A stretch of 64,000 nucleotides of DNA. Source: Escherichia coli. Lineage in GTDB: Bacteria; Pseudomonadota; Gammaproteobacteria; Enterobacterales; Enterobacteriaceae. This document shows positions 11,355 through 48,580 of the stretch, piece by piece (the first letter of the stretch is position 1; each line of letters starts with the position of its first letter). Both the position numbers and the translations under genes were made by a program. The notes under the pieces were generated by a model. The model did no database searches. It saw nothing but the letters and a program-made list of their open reading frames with translations, and was not told where the DNA came from. Location of the stretch: the NCBI RefSeq assembly GCF_024298765.1, contig NZ_CP101210.1. One strand, 5' to 3'.

Positions 11355-11475
11355 TAGCGCTCTCTCGCAATCCGGTAATCCATATCATTTTTGCATAGAC
11401 TCGACATAAATCGATATTTTTTATTCTTTTTATGATGTGGCGTAATCATAAAAAAGCACTTATCTGGAGTTTGTT

Positions 11476-12738
11476 ATGCCACATTCACTGTTCAGCACTG
11501 ATACCGATCTCACCGCCGAAAATCTGCTGCGTTTGCCCGCAGAATTTGGCTGCCCGGTGTGGGTCTACGATGCGCAAATTATTCGTCGGCAGATTGCAGC
11601 GCTGAAACAGTTTGATGTGGTGCGCTTTGCACAGAAAGCCTGTTCCAATATTCATATTTTGCGCTTAATGCGTGAGCAGGGCGTAAAAGTGGATTCCGTC
11701 TCGTTAGGCGAAATAGAGCGTGCACTGGCGGCGGGTTACAATCCGCAAACGCACCCCGATGATATTGTTTTTACGGCAGATGTTATCGATCAGGCGACGC
11801 TTGAACGAGTCAGTGAATTGCAAATTCCGGTGAATGCGGGTTCTGTTGATATGCTCGACCAACTGGGTCAGGTTTCGCCAGGGCATCGGGTATGGCTGCG
11901 TGTTAATCCGGGGTTTGGTCACGGGCATAGCCAAAAAACCAATACCGGTGGCGAAAACAGCAAGCACGGTATCTGGTACACCGATCTGCCCGCCGCACTG
12001 GACGTGATACAACGTCATCATCTACAGCTGGTCGGCATTCACATGCACATTGGTTCTGGCGTCGATTATGCCCATCTGGAACAGGTATGTGGTGCTATGG
12101 TGCGTCAGGTCCTCGAGTTCGGTCAGGATTTACAGGCTATTTCTGCGGGCGGTGGGCTTTCTATTCCTTATCAACAGGGTGAAGAGGCGGTTGATACCGA
12201 ACATTATTATGGTCTGTGGAATGCCGCGCGTGAGCAAATCGCCCGCCATTTGGGCCATCCTGTGAAACTGGAAATTGAACCGGGTCGCTTTCTGGTAGCG
12301 CAGGCTGGCGTATTAATTACTCAAGTGCGGAGCGTCAAACAAATGGGTAGCCGCCACTTTGTGCTGGTTGATGCCGGGTTCAACGATCTGATGCGCCCGG
12401 CAATGTACGGTAGTTACCACCATATCAGTGCCCTGGCAGCTGATGGTCGTTCTCTGGAACACGCACCAACGGTGGAAACCGTCGTCGCCGGGCCGTTATG
12501 TGAATCGGGCGATGTCTTTACCCAGCAGGAAGGGGGAAATGTCGAAACCCGCGCCTTGCCGGAAGTGAAGGCGGGTGATTATCTGGTACTGCATGATACG
12601 GGGGCATATGGCGCATCAATGTCATCCAACTACAACAGCCGTCCGCTGTTACCAGAAGTTCTGTTTGATAATGGTCAGGCGCGGTTGATTCGCCGTCGCC
12701 AGACCATTGAAGAATTACTGGCGCTGGAATTGCTTTAA
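11476..12738 (+). CDS. lysA: Diaminopimelate decarboxylase (PLP-dependent)
   Basis: 420-aa ORF recognised as LysA; divergent lysR partner. Confidence 0.9.
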   Translation: MPHSLFSTDTDLTAENLLRLPAEFGCPVWVYDAQIIRRQIAALKQFDVVRFAQKACSNIHILRLMREQGVKVDSVSLGEIERALAAGYNPQTHPDDIVFTADVIDQATLERVSELQIPVNAGSVDMLDQLGQVSPGHRVWLRVNPGFGHGHSQKTNTGGENSKHGIWYTDLPAALDVIQRHHLQLVGIHMHIGSGVDYAHLEQVCGAMVRQVLEFGQDLQAISAGGGLSIPYQQGEEAVDTEHYYGLWNAAREQIARHLGHPVKLEIEPGRFLVAQAGVLITQVRSVKQMGSRHFVLVDAGFNDLMRPAMYGSYHHISALAADGRSLEHAPTVETVVAGPLCESGDVFTQQEGGNVETRALPEVKAGDYLVLHDTGAYGASMSSNYNSRPLLPEVLFDNGQARLIRRRQTIEELLALELL

Positions 12739-12744
12739 CTGCGG

Positions 12745-13776
12745 TTAGTCGCTGGTTGCATGATGACTTGCCTCCAGCGACGGAGTTGACACTGAATGGC
12801 GACGTACCAGCGTCGGACTAAAGACATTAGTGATTTCCGGGAGAGGGCGATTATCCGCCAGCGCCAAAGCCAGTTCGGCAGCCTGCGTCGCCATCGTCAC
12901 GATTGGGTAACGCACGGTGGTCAGGCGCGGACGCACATAGCGTGACACCAGCACATCATCAAAGCCAATTAACGAAATCTCACCCGGTACATCAATACCA
13001 TTATCATTGAGCACGCCCATCGCGCCCGCCGCCATTGAATCGTTATAACAGGCTACCGCAGTGAAATTTCTGCCTCGTCCCAAAAGCTCGGTCATTGCCT
13101 GTTCGCCGCCGCTTTCGTCTGGTTCGCCAAATGTCACCAGCCGGTCATTGGCCGGAATACCACTTTCAGCAAGGGCATCGTAATACCCTTGCAGACGATC
13201 TTCGGCGTCAGAAATAGAGTGGTTAGAGCACAGATAACCAATGCGGGTATGACCTTGCTGAATTAAATGACGCGTTGCCAGCCAGGCACCGTAACGATCG
13301 TCCAGAGCAATACAACGGTTTTCAAAGCCAGGCAGGATACGGTTGATCAGCACCATACCGGGCATTTGTTTCATTAACGAGGCTAAATCGGCATCCGGGA
13401 TCATTTTGGCATGGACAACCAGCGCAGCACAGCGATGGCGGATCAGTTGCTCAATGGCCTGACGCTCTTTTTGTTCGTTGTGGTAACCGTTGCCAATCAA
13501 TAAAAAATTACCAGTGTGATAAGCCACCTGTTCGACCGCTTTCACCATTGCGCCGAAAAACGGATCGGAAACATCACCAACGACCAGACCGATCGTTTCA
13601 GTGGTCTGCTGCGCCAGCGCACGGGCGTTGGCGTTCGGGTGATAGCTAAGAGACTCCATTGCACTATGCACAGCAAGCCGGGAAGCTTCGCTGGCTTTGG
13701 GTGAATTATTAATGACGCGGGAAACGGTGGCGACTGAAACGCCTGCCAGTCGGGCTACATCCTTTATGGTCGCCAT
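12745..13776 (-). CDS. galR: Galactose operon repressor (LacI/GalR family)
   Basis: 343-aa ORF with N-terminal HTH MATIKDVARLAGVSVATVSRVIN and periplasmic-binding-protein-like core. Confidence 0.9.
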   Translation of the reverse strand: MATIKDVARLAGVSVATVSRVINNSPKASEASRLAVHSAMESLSYHPNANARALAQQTTETIGLVVGDVSDPFFGAMVKAVEQVAYHTGNFLLIGNGYHNEQKERQAIEQLIRHRCAALVVHAKMIPDADLASLMKQMPGMVLINRILPGFENRCIALDDRYGAWLATRHLIQQGHTRIGYLCSNHSISDAEDRLQGYYDALAESGIPANDRLVTFGEPDESGGEQAMTELLGRGRNFTAVACYNDSMAAGAMGVLNDNGIDVPGEISLIGFDDVLVSRYVRPRLTTVRYPIVTMATQAAELALALADNRPLPEITNVFSPTLVRRHSVSTPSLEASHHATSD

Positions 13777-42796: not shown

Positions 42797-42969
42797 TGTT
42801 TTTATTTATTCAATGAATTTATATTTCGTTGAATAGATAATATTTACCTGAATATTAGACGTTGGTTTTGTGACTGATGTCGAATATTTGAATGTCGGCT
42901 TGAAAAATAAGCCGACCATCTCTTTAATTAAGCACAATTCCGTGTAATGTATATGCATTAGTTAATCAT

Positions 42970-43042
42970 CTTGTAACTGTTAAATCAGGCAAGGCAATGT
43001 TTGAAGTAGTTATTACTTCTGACGTGCCTTGCCTTTTTTTTT
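42970..43042 (+). promoter_or_regulatory. RAT-like element overlapping a leader terminator (BglG/LicT-type antitermination attenuator)
   Basis: CTGTTAAATCAGGCAAGGCAATG resembles the RAT motif; GGCAAGGCA (42988-42996) pairs with TGCCTTGCC (43025-43033), followed by nine T residues (43034-43042). Confidence 0.6.
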
Positions 43043-43053
43043 GGAGCTATGGA

Positions 43054-43878
43054 ATGATCATCGAAAAAGTCATGAACAATAATTGTGTACAGGCATCGAT
43101 GAATGGACAGGAGGTTATCATTTCTGGGCCTGGCGTCGGTTACAACAAAAAATATGGAATGTCGGTCCCTGAGCATCCGGCTAACCGGATTTTTTATGTC
43201 AGAAATGAACAAAAAAATAAACTCTACAAATTGATTGAGCATGTGGATATCGAGTATGTTTTTGTTGCCGAAAAAATAGTGCAATATGCGGAGAACAATC
43301 TCGAAAAAAATCTCAATCCATCGCTACTATTGATTCTTGCTGATCATATTTCGAATGCAATATCCCGAGTCGCTTCAGGCATACAAATTAATAATGTTTT
43401 CCTTGATGAAATCAAAGCGTTGTACAAAGCAGAGTATGCGATAAGTCGCGATGCATTAACTATCATTAATGAGCAATTCAGCGTTCAACTTCCTGATGAT
43501 GAGATTGGTTTTATAGCATTGCATATCTTAAATAATTATGAAAATTCAGTTGATTATGAATCAGTACGGATTATTGAGTTGTCGCAAATAATCACGGGGC
43601 TTATTGAAGTTGTTTATAACAGAAAGGTGGACAGAAGTTCATTTAATTATTCCAGGTTCATGATACACCTTAAATATTTTTCAAGTCGCGTATTATGCAA
43701 TGAAAAAATAAAACAGAAAGATATTGGTGATCTCTATGAACAGTTTCTTGAGAAAGACATTCTGTTACAGCGCGCAATTCATGAAATTGAAAGGTATTTG
43801 TACGCCACTTTTAAATATGAATTGATTTTGGAAGAAAAACTATATCTCTCTATTCGCACCAAAGTATTAATGGACTAA
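43054..43878 (+). CDS. BglG/LicT/SacY-family transcriptional antiterminator (CAT RNA-binding domain plus PRD domains); real start is the internal ATG at 43054
   Basis: MIIEKVMNNNCVQASMNGQEVIISGPGVGYNKK matches the CAT domain N-terminus; GGAG 7 nt upstream of the ATG; the track's upstream start lies inside the terminator hairpin. Confidence 0.8.
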   Translation: MIIEKVMNNNCVQASMNGQEVIISGPGVGYNKKYGMSVPEHPANRIFYVRNEQKNKLYKLIEHVDIEYVFVAEKIVQYAENNLEKNLNPSLLLILADHISNAISRVASGIQINNVFLDEIKALYKAEYAISRDALTIINEQFSVQLPDDEIGFIALHILNNYENSVDYESVRIIELSQIITGLIEVVYNRKVDRSSFNYSRFMIHLKYFSSRVLCNEKIKQKDIGDLYEQFLEKDILLQRAIHEIERYLYATFKYELILEEKLYLSIRTKVLMD

Positions 43879-43909
43879 TTATATATAACATTTATATGAG
43901 ATAACCCGC

Positions 43910-45490
43910 ATGAAACAAAAGAAAGCCTGGAGTTTTTTTCAGAGCCTGGGAAAGGCATTTATGTATCCCATCGCTCTGCTAAGTGTATGTGGCATGATGT
44001 TAGGGCTAGGAAGTGGTTTAGCCAGCGATGATATGGCAAAATTAATTCCACTACTGGCTATTCCCGTAATTAAAACCATTCTTGATTTTATTGTTAGCCT
44101 TGGTTTGTTTGCCTTTGTCAATTTACCTGTATTGTTTGCGATAGCTATACCTCTGGGGTTATTAAAAGAGAAAGAGGATAAAGCCTATGGCGCTTTTTCT
44201 GGCTTAATTGGTTTCATGGCGATGCATCTGGGAACGAACTTTTATCTTAAACAACATGACTTATTGGTCGCTGCTGATCAAATGTCGACACATGGGCAAA
44301 CCATTATTCTGGGAATCCAGTCCTACAATACCAGTGTGTTGGGTGGGATTATAGCAGGATTATTAGTCGCCAGTATGTATAAAAAGATCGTTAACTTACG
44401 TATTCCTGAATCATTAGGATTTTATAGTGGTCCACGCCTGGTGCCTATTATTACACTGATTGTGATGAGTGGATTTGGTCTGATCATCCCTTTTATCTGG
44501 CCGCCATTTTTCAATCTTTTCATGCTCATTGGCCACTGGATTTCAACTTCCGGTCCTGTTGGCTATTTTTTCTATGCAGTCGCCGAACGCGTGACGATAC
44601 CTTTTGGTTTAAATCACCTGGTGACGTCAGTTTTCCGCTTTACCCCCATCGGCGGATCGGCAGTGATCGGCGGCGAAGAGTATTATGGCACCCTGAACAT
44701 GTTTATGGCGTACGTCAAAGAGAATGCGGTCATTCCGCTGGATTTGGCGGGGAAAATGGAACAGGGCAAACTGATGATTCAGTATGGTCTGGCTGGTGCC
44801 GCGCTGGCGATGTATCGCACTGCTCATGCTCAAAACAGAAAAGCTATCAAAGCATTGCTTATTTCCGGGGTGCTTACAGTCATTATTGGCGGCGTCAGCG
44901 AACCGATTGAGTTTCTGTTCTTATTTGTCAGTCCACTGCTATTTGTCTTCCATGCTTTTATGAATGGCTTCGCCAACATGGTCTTGCCATATATGGGCGT
45001 GAAGATGGGATTTACTGGCGATCTGATTCAATTTATTAGCTTTGGCGTATTGCGTGGCACAAGAACAGGTTGGCCAATAGCGATGTGTGTCGAAGTGGCC
45101 TATTTCTTTATTTATTACTTTGTGTTCCGTTGGACTATTCTCAAATTTAACCTGATGACGGTAGGCCGTGAAGAGTCCAGTCCTGTCACGCTGAACGCTC
45201 ATGAGGATACGGCTATAGCGGATATCCCAACGCTTGATAAATCAGAGCTGCAAGCAGCGGAGCAGATGGTTAAGGCACTTGGTGGTAAAGAGAATATTAA
45301 ATCCCTGGATAATTGCGTAACTCGTTTACGTTTAACAATCGCAGATATGGGATTGATTGACGAGGCAGCAATAAAAAGAGCTGGCGGAATTGCGGTTGTT
45401 AAACTTGATCAAAATACCCTACAAGTCATTATCGGTACTAAAGTCATCGCCTTGCGTCGGGATATGGATAACTACATGGGGATATGCTGA
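43910..45490 (+). CDS. PTS EIICB component of the glucose/maltose/N-acetylglucosamine family
   Basis: 526-aa ORF, polytopic EIIC body followed by an EIIB domain carrying the phospho-cysteine motif (NCVTRLRL). Confidence 0.85.
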   Translation: MKQKKAWSFFQSLGKAFMYPIALLSVCGMMLGLGSGLASDDMAKLIPLLAIPVIKTILDFIVSLGLFAFVNLPVLFAIAIPLGLLKEKEDKAYGAFSGLIGFMAMHLGTNFYLKQHDLLVAADQMSTHGQTIILGIQSYNTSVLGGIIAGLLVASMYKKIVNLRIPESLGFYSGPRLVPIITLIVMSGFGLIIPFIWPPFFNLFMLIGHWISTSGPVGYFFYAVAERVTIPFGLNHLVTSVFRFTPIGGSAVIGGEEYYGTLNMFMAYVKENAVIPLDLAGKMEQGKLMIQYGLAGAALAMYRTAHAQNRKAIKALLISGVLTVIIGGVSEPIEFLFLFVSPLLFVFHAFMNGFANMVLPYMGVKMGFTGDLIQFISFGVLRGTRTGWPIAMCVEVAYFFIYYFVFRWTILKFNLMTVGREESSPVTLNAHEDTAIADIPTLDKSELQAAEQMVKALGGKENIKSLDNCVTRLRLTIADMGLIDEAAIKRAGGIAVVKLDQNTLQVIIGTKVIALRRDMDNYMGIC

Positions 45491-46665
45491 TGGATGTTTT
45501 TAATACTCCTATTTCCCGCAAAGGAACATATTGTACCCAATGGGACTTTTGCGAGGACAGATTTGGTGTAAAAGATGTATTACCATTCTCTATTTCAGAT
45601 ATGGATCTTCCGATACCGGAAGCTATCATCAGGGCATTAAGAAAACGTCTGGAACACCCGATTTTAGGGTACAGCCGTTGGCAGCATGATGACTATCTGA
45701 ATGCGATAGTCAATTGGTATCATCAACAATATAAAACTGAAATCAAACCAGAATGGATAACCTATAGCCCAAGCGTGATGTACTCCATTGCTAAAGCAAT
45801 AGAGTTATTGACATCGCATGGTGATAATATTCTCGTTTTTACACCTGTCTATAATGCATTTTTTGATATAATTAAACATAGTGAGAGAAATATTCTGACA
45901 GCCTCTTTGATTATAAAAAATGAGGGGGGCTACGCTATCAATTGGCAAGATTTTGATCTTAAGATTCAAAGCGCAAAGATGGTGTTATTATGTAATCCTC
46001 ATAACCCGACAGGAACCGTCTGGTCGGAAGAAGATCTGCATAAAATCGCTGCAAGCTGTGCAAGACATAATGTCTGGTTATGTTCAGATGAAATTCACAG
46101 TGATTTTGTTTTTAATCGTAGCTTTACATCTGCGCTTAAAATAAAAAAAGAAAAAGTAGTGGTGTTTAATTCGATATCGAAGACATTTAATGTTCCTGCG
46201 CTAACAGGATCGTATATGATTTCAACTGACGATAATTTTAATCATAAGTTCAGAACGATATCAAGATATCGCGATTTTGTAAACTCCCCATCCGTACTGA
46301 ATATAATTGCAACTATTATTGCCTATAACGAATGTGAGGGATGGTTAAAGTCATTAAAGGCACATATTGCCTCTAACATTCAATTCACCCAGCAGTATCT
46401 GAACGAAAATACTCCAGAATTGATCGTAAGGCCAGCTGATGGTTGCTATTTTTCGTGGATAGATTGCTCTGCTATTGGTTATTCCTTTGATGAATTCTAC
46501 AGTCGATTAATTCATGAAGGCAAAGTGGGCATTATGGCGGGGAATGTCTATGGAACGGAGGGGGAGGGCTACCTTCGTCTGAACCTGGCCTGCGGTCGAG
46601 AAAAATTATATATGGGGCTTACGCGTCTTGCGAGTGTAATTAAAAATATTAATCAAGGAAAATAA
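45484..46665 (+). CDS. PLP-dependent C-S lyase / aminotransferase of the MalY/PatB type
   Basis: 393-aa ORF with class-I aminotransferase PLP-lysine motif (FNSISKTFN); overlaps the PTS gene stop by 7 nt. Confidence 0.75.
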   Translation: MLMDVFNTPISRKGTYCTQWDFCEDRFGVKDVLPFSISDMDLPIPEAIIRALRKRLEHPILGYSRWQHDDYLNAIVNWYHQQYKTEIKPEWITYSPSVMYSIAKAIELLTSHGDNILVFTPVYNAFFDIIKHSERNILTASLIIKNEGGYAINWQDFDLKIQSAKMVLLCNPHNPTGTVWSEEDLHKIAASCARHNVWLCSDEIHSDFVFNRSFTSALKIKKEKVVVFNSISKTFNVPALTGSYMISTDDNFNHKFRTISRYRDFVNSPSVLNIIATIIAYNECEGWLKSLKAHIASNIQFTQQYLNENTPELIVRPADGCYFSWIDCSAIGYSFDEFYSRLIHEGKVGIMAGNVYGTEGEGYLRLNLACGREKLYMGLTRLASVIKNINQGK

Positions 46666-46667
46666 AA

Positions 46668-47264
46668 ATGAACAGTACGGATCTTATCCATCTCATTAAA
46701 CATTTTATGCGTAACGAACATAAAGCAGTTGAAGAAGTTATTGATTCCCCCCTTTCGGAGGTCGCAAATTTAATTAAAGTATTACAGTCTTGTCAGGGGA
46801 AAGTTGTTTTTATTGGTGTCGGTAAGTCCGGTATTATTGCCCGAAAACTCGCCGCAACATTTGCCAGCACTGGAACTCCCTCGTTTTTTGTTCACGGTAC
46901 TGAAGCCGTACACGGCGATCTTGGGATGGTGGCGAAAGATGATGTTGTTATTCTTATTTCAAACAGTGGTGAGACGACAGAAATCCTGGCAACACTACCT
47001 AGTCTGAAAAAAATGGGTAATTATTTGATCTCCTTTACCCGCAGTCATCGCTCATCGCTTGCGATAAGTTGTGATTTATCCGTTGAAATTCCCGTAAAAA
47101 GTGAGGCGGATAATTTAGGTTTAGCGCCGTCATGCTCATCAACAGTCGTTCTGGTTGTTGGTGATGCGGTGGCGCTTGCGCTCTCCGAATTGAAAAAGTT
47201 TACTCGTGCTGATTTCGGCTTATATCATCCAGGAGGTGCGCTCGGTATTAAAGCAAACTCATAA
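46668..47264 (+). CDS. SIS-domain sugar-phosphate isomerase (KdsD/GutQ-like SIS module without CBS domains)
   Basis: 198-aa ORF; GVGKSGIIARKLAATFASTGTPSFFVHGTEAVHGDLGMV and YHPGGALG resemble arabinose-5-phosphate isomerase SIS motifs. Confidence 0.7.
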   Translation: MNSTDLIHLIKHFMRNEHKAVEEVIDSPLSEVANLIKVLQSCQGKVVFIGVGKSGIIARKLAATFASTGTPSFFVHGTEAVHGDLGMVAKDDVVILISNSGETTEILATLPSLKKMGNYLISFTRSHRSSLAISCDLSVEIPVKSEADNLGLAPSCSSTVVLVVGDAVALALSELKKFTRADFGLYHPGGALGIKANS

Positions 47265-47325
47265 TTTTAGAATATAAAACAGTAACCGGTCACGCCATCT
47301 TTTGGGGTGGCGTTCATTGATGTGA

Positions 47326-48282
47326 GTGTCAGCTATGAAAAACGTTCTGGTCACCGTTCCCAGCTTTTCAGCGCGTTGTGTTTCTGCCAGCAAGCTGCTA
47401 AGAGAAAATCATTTTAACCTTATTATCAAGAATAATGTGGAGCATCTGGTTAAATCAGAATCCACAGTATTACGAGAATCTATTTGCGCAGTCATTGCCG
47501 GAAAAGATTGTTATCAAGCGGATACGTTATCGCGACTACCAGGAGTGAAAATAATATCGAGATTCGGGACAGGGATTGATAATATTGATCTTCATACGGC
47601 TCGACAATCAGGTATTGTGGTCAATAATGCTGTTGGGATTAATTCAAATGCAGTCGCGGAATTTATCATCGGTCTTATTTTTGCGAGCATGAGAAATATC
47701 CCCGGTAGCTATCATGCAATGCAAAATGGTTATTGGGGCGAGTCGCATGGCTGCGAGTTACAAGGTAAACGTATTGGCCTGCTTGGCTACGGCAATATTG
47801 GCAAAACACTGGCGAAAAGGTTATCTGGTTTTGATGTTGAGCTTTTAGCTTTTGACAAACAACCCGATTTCCAGGCCGCAGGCAAAGATGGAGTTCAGTT
47901 CGTATCAATTGAAGATATCTTTATGCAGTCTCATGTCATCATCGTTCTTTTGCCATTTTCTCCGGAGCTGGAGAACTTCATTAGTCATAAATATTTGTCG
48001 ATGATGCGCAATGGTGCTCTTATCATCAACGCCGCAAGGGGAAAGTTGCTGGATGAGGGTGCTTTACTTCAGGTAATTGAAGAACGAAATGTTTTTGCAG
48101 CGCTGGATGTGTTTAGCTCTGAACCGCTAGCGCAATTTAGCCCATTGCTACATGCCAGGAATATCATTACAACGCCGCATATTGCGGCCGCCACCGTTGA
48201 GTCATACCAGCAAACCGGGATATACGTTGCCAGGTCGATAATAGATTTCTTTGCAGGAAGGGAGATAAAAAACGTGCTGTGA
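47326..48282 (+). CDS. NAD-dependent D-isomer-specific 2-hydroxyacid dehydrogenase
   Basis: 318-aa ORF; dinucleotide fold GLLGYGNIGKTLAKRL, catalytic region (INAARG ... TPHIAAAT). Confidence 0.8.
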   Translation: MSAMKNVLVTVPSFSARCVSASKLLRENHFNLIIKNNVEHLVKSESTVLRESICAVIAGKDCYQADTLSRLPGVKIISRFGTGIDNIDLHTARQSGIVVNNAVGINSNAVAEFIIGLIFASMRNIPGSYHAMQNGYWGESHGCELQGKRIGLLGYGNIGKTLAKRLSGFDVELLAFDKQPDFQAAGKDGVQFVSIEDIFMQSHVIIVLLPFSPELENFISHKYLSMMRNGALIINAARGKLLDEGALLQVIEERNVFAALDVFSSEPLAQFSPLLHARNIITTPHIAAATVESYQQTGIYVARSIIDFFAGREIKNVL

Positions 48283-48313
48283 GTTCAGCTAAGGAAGATT
48301 TCAGGTACAAAAA

Positions 48314-48342
48314 AACCGCAATTTGTGAAACACATTGCGGTT
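48314..48342. terminator. Hairpin between convergent dehydrogenase gene and T6SS genes, possibly bidirectional
   Basis: AACCGCAAT-loop-ATTGCGGTT inverted repeat, A-run on the 5' side and short T-run on the 3' side. Confidence 0.5.
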
Positions 48343-48580
48343 TATCAGCATCATAGGTGTTGGTTGCGGGGGCCACAGTCAAGAGGTTAATCCAACCTTT
48401 TGAAACTTAAGACATTCACTGTTCCCGAACCCAAGCTATCTACCGAAATATACACTCATTATCTGATGTGAATCAACGAGTAGATCGAATGGCCTGTTCC
48501 TCTCTTTTTTGTACACAGAGACTCCTTTTAAAAAATGGCAAGGGCACATATCCCTTATTGGTACATAAATCCCCCGATGT

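What the first reader, a model, noticed from the sequence alone, without database searches (positions are those of the whole stretch)
43054..48282. Accessory five-gene operon: antiterminator, PTS EIICB, MalY-like C-S lyase, SIS isomerase, D-2-hydroxyacid dehydrogenase
Immediately after core gene amiC, in AT-richer DNA, sits a tightly packed plus-strand cluster. The PTS EIICB plus PLP C-S lyase pairing mirrors malX-malY. The added SIS-only isomerase (KdsD/GutQ-like without CBS domains) and a 2-hydroxyacid dehydrogenase suggest uptake and catabolism of an unusual phospho-sugar or amino-sugar conjugate. The substrate cannot be read from the sequence.
Basis: partly seen in the sequence, partly recalled or inferred. 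Interest (0 to 1): 0.7.

Follow-up and report, generated by a model that had tools for sequence, protein, structure and literature searches.

The report
Known ExPEC "malX" sugar-uptake operon
This five-gene sugar-uptake operon is real and intact, but it is the long-known "malX" marker locus of extraintestinal pathogenic E. coli; only the sugar it handles is still unknown.

Summary
Five tightly packed + strand genes sit in low-GC DNA right after amiC: a BglG/LicT-type antiterminator, a glucose-family PTS EIICB, a PatB/MalY C-S lyase, an SIS-only KpsF-like isomerase and a D-2-hydroxyacid dehydrogenase.

The locus is not new. CFT073 carries the same five genes at the same site (c3405-c3410 of PAI-metV). 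The classical ExPEC "PAI marker malX" PCR primers match that copy exactly. The isomerase is about 97% identical to PDB 5UQI/5VHU and is the ortholog of c3406, a published arabinose-5-phosphate isomerase.

About 31% of complete E. coli genomes carry the operon. It exists as at least three alleles that differ by 6-9% in DNA. All five genes are under strong purifying selection (dN/dS 0.03-0.12).

What this work adds:
- A RAT element overlaps an intrinsic terminator in the leader.
- A four-gene core (antiterminator, EIICB, lyase, SIS) is shared with Clostridioides difficile CD3031-CD3027 and other Firmicutes. The dehydrogenase is an E. coli/Citrobacter add-on.
- The operon is a separate module from the adjacent T6SS island. 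A 14-nt tRNA-Met remnant marks the boundary.

I found no paper that names the substrate. Verdict: already known, moderate-to-low interest.

The parts
42970..42994 (+). RAT (ribonucleic antiterminator) element in the operon leader, CUUGUAACUGUUAAAUCAGGCAAGG
   Evidence: It matches the RAT motif found in front of every homologous operon examined. In an 8-sequence alignment the six core pairs are 100% paired, and one pair shows a compensatory G-C to A-U change in two sequences. Its 3' half overlaps the terminator's 5' arm by 7 nt.
42987..43042 (+). Leader intrinsic terminator: arms AGGCAAGGCA (42987-42996) and TGCCTTGCCT (43025-43034), then a run of nine T (43034-43042). It lies just before the GGAG Shine-Dalgarno site and the ATG at 43054.
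   Evidence: RNA fold gives -30.1 kcal/mol, z = -3.3, and 0 of 200 shuffles fold as well. The element is conserved, with arm changes, in Citrobacter and an Enterobacter-like genome.
43054..43878 (+). BglG/LicT-family transcription antiterminator, 274 aa
   Evidence: Pfam CAT_RBD 54 bits and PRD 92 bits. It aligns to LicT PRD1+PRD2 (PDB 1TLV, residues 57-269) and to the GlcT and BglG N-terminal structures. It scores below every NCBIfam equivalog cut-off (LicT 228 vs 300).
43910..45490 (+). PTS glucose-family EIICB permease, 526 aa, no EIIA domain. This is the 'malX' of ExPEC typing.
   Evidence: Pfam PTS_EIIC 250 bits and EIIB 54 bits. The best NCBIfam hit is MalX-type TIGR02004 at 536.8, below its cut-off of 632.2. 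The EIIB motif NCVTRLR and the EIIC motif GVSEPIEF can be read directly in the sequence. The RPAi primer sites lie at 43755-43776 and 44655-44676.
45490..46665 (+). PatB/MalY-family PLP-dependent beta C-S lyase, 391 aa, translationally coupled to the EIICB gene
   Evidence: TIGR04350 scores 367.6 against a cut-off of 340. The best PDB matches are C. difficile 4DGT and E. coli MalY 1D2F, both at about E 2e-85. The SxSK PLP-lysine (K231) is invariant in alignment A1.
46668..47264 (+). SIS-only KpsF/GutQ-like sugar-phosphate isomerase, 198 aa; ortholog of CFT073 c3406
   Evidence: PDB 5UQI/5VHU aligns full length at E 9e-121. tblastn gives 97% identity to the CFT073 copy. The protein matches only positions 36-201 of the 328-position KdsD model, so it has no CBS domains.
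47335..48282 (+). D-isomer-specific 2-hydroxyacid dehydrogenase, 315 aa (the ORF is open from GTG 47326), annotated 'phosphoglycerate dehydrogenase'
   Evidence: Pfam 2-Hacid_dh_C 159 bits and 2-Hacid_dh 72 bits. The PGDH model TIGR01327 scores 210, far below its cut-off of 454. The best PDB matches are short PGDHs. GxGxxG, AARG, SSEP and TPHIAA motifs can be read in the sequence. The gene is present only in the E. coli and Citrobacter versions.
48315..48345 (+). Terminator hairpin at the operon end (ACCGCAAT...ATTGCGGT), flanked by an A-run upstream and TTTAT downstream
   Evidence: Read directly from the sequence; conserved in strain 40EC, where it is followed at once by tRNA-Met genes.
48361..48374 (.). 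14-nt copy of the 3' end of tRNA-Met (TGGTTGCGGGGGCC), marking the boundary between the operon module and the T6SS island
   Evidence: It is a 14/14 match to the first 14 nt of the tRNA-Met gene next to the operon in strain 40EC. Operon-only strains align up to 48374 and T6SS-only strains align from 48360.

Best explanation
This is a horizontally acquired, substrate-inducible PTS catabolic operon. It is the locus known as c3405-c3410 of PAI-metV in CFT073 and as the 'malX' PAI marker of ExPEC.

Regulation (shown by sequence). Transcription starts in the amiC-proximal leader and normally stops at the intrinsic terminator at 42987-43042. When the sugar is present, the EIICB no longer phosphorylates PRD1 of the antiterminator. 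The antiterminator's CAT domain then binds the RAT at 42970-94, which blocks formation of the terminator's 5' arm and allows read-through. The antiterminator gene lies downstream of this terminator, so the system autoinduces.

Uptake (inferred from domains). The EIICB imports and phosphorylates a glucoside-class carbohydrate. It has no EIIA domain, so it should take phosphate from the host's Crr (EIIA-Glc). Firmicute versions carry their own EIIA-Glc gene.

Enzymes (inferred). The translationally coupled PLP beta-lyase removes a beta-substituted alanyl moiety as pyruvate plus ammonia. The SIS isomerase converts the released aldose phosphate into a ketose phosphate that enters the pentose-phosphate pathway or glycolysis. 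Published in vitro activity of the ortholog c3406 is arabinose-5-P to ribulose-5-P. The dehydrogenase is a late add-on in E. coli and Citrobacter and probably handles a 2-oxo/2-hydroxy-acid product.

My estimates: inducible PTS catabolic operon under RAT antitermination, about 0.85. The lyase acts on the imported sugar conjugate rather than only as a regulator, about 0.35. No specific substrate can be named. The overall confidence of 0.6 refers to the operon-level model as a whole.
For: Domains and family scores are. The RAT and terminator rest on the fold, the motif in all seven homologous loci and the pair counts with one compensatory change. The antiterminator aligns to LicT PRD1/PRD2 with three of the four regulatory histidines. 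The order antiterminator, EIICB, lyase, SIS is conserved in Citrobacter, an Enterobacter-like genome, C. difficile, Terrisporobacter and two other Firmicutes. An EIIA-Glc gene is present only in C. difficile (adjacent to SIS), Terrisporobacter (adjacent to SIS) and L090 (upstream, opposite strand). The EIICB and lyase genes overlap at stop/start. EIICB-lyase pairs recur in at least 18 further genera. PTS-linked lyases share about 20 residues that unlinked PatB-like enzymes lack. The SIS protein is about 97% identical to PDB 5UQI and to CFT073 c3406; c3406 was published as an arabinose-5-P isomerase (title; details from my memory of the abstract). All five genes show dN/dS of 0.03-0.12 across alleles with dS of 0.16-0.48. 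The genes are annotated intact in nearly all sampled carriers.
Against: No inducing or growth substrate is known, and I found no paper naming one. From my memory of Mosberg et al. 2011, a c3406 deletion did not reproduce the attenuation of the c3405-10 deletion. Deleting all of PAI-metV had no effect in a zebrafish model. K-12 MalY is best known as a regulator that sequesters MalT (PMC10427625). C. difficile MalY is described as a cysteine desulfhydrase in vitro. So the lyase need not touch the sugar at all. No promoter could be called: the consensus scan found no more sites than shuffled sequence. Dependence on Crr is inferred only.
Confidence: 0.6

Rival explanations
1. The operon takes up a plain sugar (glucose- or maltose-like), and the lyase is a moonlighting 'trigger' regulator like K-12 MalY. 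It would damp another regulon while the permease is active and would not process the imported molecule.
For: MalY sequesters MalT (PMC10427625, listed). The lyase belongs to the same PTS-linked subfamily as MalY. The EIICB's best family match is MalX, the maltose/glucose type.
Against: This does not explain why an SIS isomerase always follows the lyase in the antiterminator-type operons. Firmicutes that carry the core are not known to have MalT (from my own knowledge). All PLP catalytic residues are invariant and the lyase gene has dN/dS of 0.12, which points to a retained enzymatic role.
Confidence: 0.2
2. The module is mainly a sulfur-amino-acid or cysteine-degrading device that makes pyruvate, ammonia and H2S. 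The PTS part would serve only as a sensor or as the carbon-status input.
For: The C. difficile ortholog MalY (CD3029) is reported to be a cysteine desulfhydrase in vitro, an essential gene and the most strongly induced gene in biofilm. The PatB family are cystathionine and cysteine-conjugate lyases.
Against: The EIICB is the most constrained gene in the operon (dN/dS 0.03) and has intact EIIB and EIIC catalytic motifs. RAT antitermination is the hallmark of sugar induction. The SIS and dehydrogenase genes have no role in this picture.
Confidence: 0.1
3. The locus supplies arabinose-5-phosphate for KDO, LPS or capsule synthesis, or for signalling as proposed for GutQ. It would be biosynthetic or regulatory rather than catabolic.
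For: The c3406 ortholog has arabinose-5-P isomerase activity (title). A review places it in LPS precursor supply. gutQ likewise sits inside a PTS operon (from my own knowledge).
Against: E. coli already has kdsD and gutQ. From my memory of Mosberg 2011, a c3406 deletion was not attenuated. Gram-positive C. difficile and Terrisporobacter, which make no KDO, keep the same SIS gene in the same operon.
Confidence: 0.05
4. The operon is a decaying hitch-hiker of the T6SS island with no function of its own.
For: It lies next to a T6SS island in low-GC DNA. A few strains carry IS insertions in it.
Against: dN/dS is 0.03-0.12 for all five genes despite dS up to 0.48. About 1686 of 5426 genomes hold it at full length. 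It occurs without the T6SS and the T6SS occurs without it.
Confidence: 0.01

Closest known systems
CFT073 c3405-c3410 (PAI-CFT073-metV), the ExPEC 'PAI marker malX' locus
   Same: It has the same five genes in the same order at the same amiC-proximal site. Protein identities are 93-98%. The RPAi primers of Johnson and Stell 2000 (sequences given in PMC12058657) match the CFT073 copy exactly, giving a 922-bp product that spans the antiterminator/EIICB junction.
   Different: The window carries a different allele, 93.9% identical in DNA. Its forward primer site has 2 mismatches and its reverse site has 4.
E. coli K-12 malI-malX-malY
   Same: A glucose-family EIICB gene is followed directly by a MalY-subfamily PLP C-S lyase gene. 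The two lyases share subfamily-specific residues.
   Different: Identity is only about 41% for MalX and 36% for MalY. malXY has no BglG-type antiterminator and no SIS gene within 6 kb; from my own knowledge it is controlled by the LacI-type repressor MalI and has no dehydrogenase gene. The EIICB scores below the MalX model cut-off.
Clostridioides difficile CD3031-CD3027 (antiterminator, malX, malY, phosphosugar isomerase, EIIA-Glc)
   Same: It has the same four-gene core in the same order, with identities of 36%, 68%, 49% and 52%. It is also controlled by RAT and terminator elements.
   Different: It carries its own EIIA-Glc gene and has no dehydrogenase. Its RAT-terminator unit lies between the antiterminator and EIICB genes and is repeated four times in tandem.
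bglGFB (E. coli), licT and glcT-ptsG (B. subtilis) antitermination systems
   Same: All use a CAT+PRD1+PRD2 antiterminator, a RAT that overlaps an intrinsic terminator, and a cognate PTS permease.
   Different: The antiterminator scores below all equivalog cut-offs. The second PRD2 histidine (LicT H269) is Arg in E. coli and Citrobacter. The downstream enzymes are a lyase and an isomerase rather than a phospho-glycosidase.
KdsD / GutQ / KpsF arabinose-5-phosphate isomerases
   Same: The SIS catalytic domain is homologous (KdsD model 197 bits; PDB 2XHZ at E 1e-40). The ortholog c3406 is published as having the same activity.
   Different: There are no tandem CBS domains. The protein falls below the KpsF/GutQ subfamily cut-off (191.8 vs 203.7) and far below the KdsD and GutQ equivalog cut-offs.

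Membership tests
BglG/LicT/SacY transcription antiterminators | N-terminal CAT RNA-binding domain | tested here: met
   PF03123 scores 54.2 bits against a cut-off of 25, over residues 1-55. The protein aligns to the LicT CAT structure 1L1C and to the GlcT and BglG N-terminal structures.
BglG/LicT/SacY transcription antiterminators | Two PRD domains carrying the four regulatory histidines | tested here: inconclusive
   The protein aligns across LicT PRD1+PRD2 (1TLV, residues 57-269). Equivalents of H100, H159 and H207 are present. The H269 equivalent is Arg in E. coli and Citrobacter but His in the five other homologs. Pfam reports only one PRD stretch.
BglG/LicT/SacY transcription antiterminators | A RAT RNA target that overlaps an intrinsic terminator upstream of the regulated genes | tested here: met
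   RAT at 42970-94 and terminator at 42987-43042. RNA binding itself was not tested.
PTS glucose-family EIICB; MalX equivalog | EIIC and EIIB domains with the catalytic Cys motif | tested here: met
   PF02378 250 bits and PF00367 54 bits. NCVTRLR and GVSEPIEF can be read in the sequence.
PTS glucose-family EIICB; MalX equivalog | Score above the curated MalX model cut-off, which would imply the same substrate as K-12 MalX | tested here: not met
   TIGR02004 scores 536.8 against 632.2, and PRK10110 scores 526 against 665. Identity to MalX is 41%. The name 'malX' is therefore a misnomer for substrate purposes.
PatB/MalY C-S lyases | Score above the curated family cut-off, plus the PLP-lysine and fold-type-I motifs | tested here: met
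   TIGR04350 scores 367.6 against 340. K231 in SxSK, N172, D200 and R363 are invariant in A1. C-S lyase activity of this protein has not been tested.
KpsF/GutQ/KdsD arabinose-5-phosphate isomerases | An SIS domain followed by tandem CBS domains, scoring above the family cut-off | tested here: not met
   Only the SIS half matches (KdsD model positions 36-201 of 328). TIGR00393 scores 191.8 against 203.7.
KpsF/GutQ/KdsD arabinose-5-phosphate isomerases | Catalyses the interconversion of arabinose-5-P and ribulose-5-P | not testable with these tools
   This is published for the 97%-identical ortholog c3406 (Mosberg et al. 2011; title seen; paper not held). The structure is PDB 5UQI/5VHU.
D-3-phosphoglycerate dehydrogenase (SerA) | Score above the PGDH equivalog cut-off | tested here: not met
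   TIGR01327 scores 210 against 454, and PRK11790 scores 150 against 404. It is a member of the broader D-2-hydroxyacid dehydrogenase family only.
ExPEC 'PAI marker malX' (RPAi amplicon) | Both RPAi primer sites are present about 0.9 kb apart | tested here: inconclusive
   The locus is the same. CFT073 has exact sites 922 bp apart. The window allele has 2 and 4 mismatches, so the PCR outcome for this strain is uncertain.

The most novel reading that the evidence does not exclude
The conserved trio of EIICB, MalY-subfamily beta-lyase and SIS isomerase may define an undescribed PTS pathway for a glycosylated beta-substituted amino acid, such as an S- or O-glycosyl cysteine or serine released from glycopeptides or host glycoproteins. 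In this pathway a PLP beta-elimination, rather than a phospho-glycosidase, would free the sugar phosphate, and the isomerase would then feed it into central metabolism. The trio occurs in ExPEC, Citrobacter, C. difficile and other gut Firmicutes. If true, this would also explain the unexplained malX-malY pairing in K-12 and the fitness role of the ExPEC marker.
Probability: 0.15. Interest if true: 0.7.

Novelty: already known. Interest (0 to 1): 0.3.

Why it matters
The "malX" PAI marker is one of the most widely typed ExPEC virulence-associated genes, yet nobody knows what it does. It is sometimes read as the K-12 maltose gene (for example PMC3520894), although the two proteins are only about 41% identical.

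Three results from this work make that old question easier to test:
- The locus is a self-contained, RAT-controlled module that is separate from the T6SS.
- It is under strong purifying selection in about a third of complete E. coli genomes. The carriers include the probiotic Nissle 1917.
- It shares a four-gene core with the C. difficile malY operon, which is reported to be essential and strongly induced in biofilm.

A leader-reporter screen could find the inducer. The allele divergence also means that PCR-based "malX" surveys probably report mainly the CFT073-type allele.

Tried and rejected
- The three key papers are not held: Lloyd et al. 2009, Mosberg et al. 2011 and Dubois et al. 2016. 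What I say about their content beyond titles comes from memory and is marked as such.
- Locus-tag searches (c3405-c3409) returned mostly unrelated hits. PDB-code and MalY/MalX searches found no paper that names a substrate.
- The supplement of the C. difficile glucose/CcpA transcriptome paper shows only a predicted cre site at CD3031. The tabulated CD3031 ratios were not examined, and the other operon genes are not listed there.
- Rfam has no family matching the leader.
- The consensus promoter scan found no more sites than shuffled sequence. I therefore call no promoter.
It added only one more five-gene locus (Citrobacter sp. FP75), although it did reveal the malXY-type pairs.
- I considered and rejected filing the dehydrogenase as SerA, the EIICB as MalX, and the SIS protein as a canonical KdsD or GutQ. 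All score below the curated cut-offs.
- I considered several specific substrates: Amadori products, glucosaminate-type amino-sugar acids, KDO-like acids, and S- or O-glycosyl amino acids. None can be supported from sequence alone.

Full report
**1. Observation**

The window holds five + strand ORFs at 43054-43878, 43910-45490, 45490-46665, 46668-47264 and 47335-48282. These coordinates match the RefSeq gene models for identical DNA in other strains. The genes are tightly packed: the EIICB stop and the lyase start share a base, a 2-nt gap precedes the SIS gene, and a 70-nt gap precedes the dehydrogenase. GC content falls to 33-45% between about 42750 and 48500, against 52-58% on either side.

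- The first gene encodes CAT_RBD plus PRD domains.
- The second encodes PTS EIIC plus EIIB. Its best match is the MalX-type model, but it scores below the cut-off (536.8 vs 632.2).
- The third encodes a PatB-family C-S lyase that passes its cut-off (367.6 vs 340).
- The fourth encodes an SIS domain alone, which matches only the N-terminal half of the KdsD, GutQ and KpsF models.
- The fifth encodes a D-2-hydroxyacid dehydrogenase that scores far below the phosphoglycerate dehydrogenase cut-off (210 vs 454).

**2. The locus is already known**

CFT073 carries the same five genes between amiC and the T6SS VasL gene, with 93-98% protein identity to the window. Bryant et al. list this stretch as 'c3405-c3410, PTS system, maltose/glucose specific' inside PAI-CFT073-metV. 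The adjacent T6SS is described as the cluster within PAI-metV.

The SIS protein matches PDB 5UQI/5VHU ('phosphosugar isomerase', 198 aa) over its full length at E 9e-121. [quoted passage not shown] 2011). I saw that title, but the paper itself is not held.

From memory, Lloyd et al. 2009 found that deleting c3405-10 attenuated CFT073 in mouse UTI. Also from memory, Mosberg et al. found that deleting c3406 alone did not.

The two RPAi primers used worldwide to score the ExPEC 'pathogenicity island marker malX' are given in PMC12058657. Both match the CFT073 copy exactly, one in the antiterminator gene and one in the EIICB gene, 922 bp apart. The finding is therefore the 'malX' marker locus.

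A 2026 genome paper on APEC strain BEN2908 still lists the five genes only by similarity: 32% to SerA, 52% to KdsD, 36% to MalY, 41% to MalX and 30% to BglG. None of my searches found a paper that names a substrate.

**3. Distribution and selection**

The operon occurs in about 1688 of 5426 complete E. coli genomes, at full length in about 1686. Carriers include Nissle 1917 and ATCC 25922. Sampled carriers are annotated with five intact genes; a few have IS insertions.

There are at least three alleles. The window allele is 93.9% identical in DNA to the CFT073 allele and 90.9% identical to a third allele in strain 40EC. The flanking AmiC protein is identical in all three strains. Across the marker amplicon, 968 genomes are at least 99% identical to CFT073, 359 fall in the 95-99% band and 361 in the 90-95% band.

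In the window allele, the forward primer site has 2 mismatches and the reverse site has 4. Pairwise dN/dS is 0.03-0.12 for all five genes, with dS of 0.16-0.48. All five genes are therefore maintained by selection and the alleles are old.

**4. The operon is separate from the T6SS**

Strain 40EC has amiC, the operon, three tRNA-Met genes and mltA, with no T6SS. Strain 503440 has amiC followed by T6SS remnants, with no operon. The window carries a 14-nt copy of the tRNA-Met 3' end at 48361-48374. This is exactly where alignments to operon-only and T6SS-only strains switch. A conserved hairpin terminator at 48315-48345 closes the operon. The operon module spans about 42797-48360, and it lies outside the tRNA-integrated T6SS island.

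**5. Regulation**

The leader contains CUUGUAACUGUUAAAUCAGGCAAGG at 42970-42994. Its 3' half overlaps the 5' arm of a long hairpin (42987-43034) that is followed by nine T. That hairpin folds at -30.1 kcal/mol, with z = -3.3 and no shuffle folding as well.

The same RAT-like motif, with a following terminator, sits in front of every homologous operon I examined. In an eight-sequence alignment the six core RAT pairs are 100% paired. One pair changes from G-C to A-U in two sequences. This is modest support, because most of the pairs never vary.

The antiterminator aligns to LicT PRD1 and PRD2 and keeps three of the four regulatory histidines. The equivalent of LicT H269 is Arg in E. coli and Citrobacter only. 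This is the standard BglG/LicT logic, and because the antiterminator gene lies behind the terminator, the system autoinduces. Rfam has no matching family. No promoter could be called.

**6. Conserved core**

Relatives of the lyase at 45-69% identity lie in the same gene order (antiterminator, EIICB, lyase, SIS) in several taxa:
- Citrobacter has all five genes, at a different chromosomal site.
- An Enterobacter-like genome has four genes.
- C. difficile CD3031-CD3027 has four genes plus EIIA-Glc.
- Terrisporobacter has four genes plus EIIA-Glc.
- Two further Firmicute contigs have four genes.

The dehydrogenase therefore appears to be a later addition in E. coli and Citrobacter. In C. difficile the operon is reported to be among the most strongly induced in biofilm. 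Its malY is reported to be essential and to act as a cysteine desulfhydrase in vitro.

A looser EIICB-lyase pair of the malXY type has no antiterminator and no SIS gene. It occurs in many Enterobacterales, Vibrionaceae, Aeromonas, Brachyspira, Bacilli and a Streptomyces. Lyases linked to a PTS gene share about 20 residues that unlinked PatB-like enzymes lack. Examples are Gln for the usual Lys in the KWD motif, R63, W64, Y98, P236, M349 and K372. They form a distinct subfamily that has co-evolved with the permease.

**7. Mechanism**

The best-supported reading is an inducible PTS catabolic operon. EIICB imports and phosphorylates a glucoside-class compound, taking phosphate from Crr because it has no EIIA domain of its own. 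The coupled beta-lyase and the isomerase then turn that compound into central metabolites.

The regulatory steps are shown by sequence. The enzymatic steps are inferred. The only biochemical anchor is the published arabinose-5-P isomerase activity of c3406.

The main rivals are these:
- The lyase is a MalY-like regulator.
- The module mainly degrades cysteine.
- The module supplies arabinose-5-P for KDO. Its conservation in KDO-free Gram-positive bacteria makes this unlikely.

The possibility that the operon is decaying DNA is refuted by the selection data.

**8. Verdict**

The locus itself is already known. What remains open is the substrate, and with it the reason that PTS permeases and MalY-type lyases travel together. 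Interest is moderate to low.

Noticed in passing
L005 6997-7430 (C. difficile, between CD3031 and CD3030): The gap between the antiterminator and EIICB genes holds four tandem copies, each about 104 nt, of a canonical RAT plus terminator hairpin plus T-run. This is an unusual serial antitermination arrangement. Terrisporobacter and the L090 and L091 contigs have one unit upstream of the antiterminator gene and a RAT-like motif in the gap; in L091 that second motif has no evident terminator.
   Followed up: partly
window 43755-43776 and 44655-44676: In this allele the sites of the standard RPAi 'malX' marker primers carry 2 and 4 mismatches. They are exact in CFT073. PCR surveys may under-count carriers of the non-CFT073 alleles, which make up roughly 40% of carriers.
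   Followed up: partly
window 48361-48374: A 14-nt remnant of the tRNA-Met 3' end marks the edge of the T6SS island. Operon-only, T6SS-only and operon-plus-T6SS configurations all exist at the amiC-metZWV site. 'PAI-metV' is therefore two independent modules.
   Followed up: yes
window 43054-43878, residue 268 of the antiterminator: The fourth regulatory histidine of PRD2 (LicT H269) is Arg in the E. coli and Citrobacter proteins and His in the five other homologs. This may mean altered HPr-dependent control.
   Followed up: partly
P0076-P0083; L092 7693-8901: In the third allele the lyase is 402 aa and overlaps the SIS start by 32 nt. A few E. coli and Shigella records annotate a 550-592 aa lyase-SIS fusion protein. 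These are probably frameshifts or sequencing errors.
   Followed up: no
window 42869-42884; L007 leader: A CRP-like site, TGTGACTGATGTCGAA, matches 8 of 10 consensus positions and lies upstream of the RAT. The Enterobacter-like homolog has a perfect TGTGATTCATTTCACA in its leader. A hairpin at 42894-42916 lies between this site and the RAT.
   Followed up: no
L089 (Granulicatella) 3138-9277: A 48%-identical lyase sits next to a different PTS (EIIA_2 plus a PTS_IIB+EIIC permease), an Mga-domain regulator with an EIIA_2 domain, and an M20/M28 peptidase. This is another PTS-lyase link, here with a peptidase, and it hints at glyco-amino-acid or glyco-peptide substrates.
   Followed up: no
L088 (Terrisporobacter) 9488-12815: Split transketolase genes and a PGM/PMM-family gene follow the EIIA gene of the homologous operon, after a gap of about 200 nt. 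This may link the operon to pentose-phosphate metabolism.
   Followed up: no
Literature: PMC3520894: The ExPEC/AIEC virulence marker 'malX' is interpreted there as the K-12 maltodextrin gene. The marker gene is only about 41% identical to K-12 MalX and scores below the MalX model cut-off.
   Followed up: partly
H1-H3 and H53 (E. coli genomes): ISVsa5, ISCro1 and IS2 insertions interrupt the operon in a few strains, and one copy of the operon is on a plasmid.
   Followed up: no
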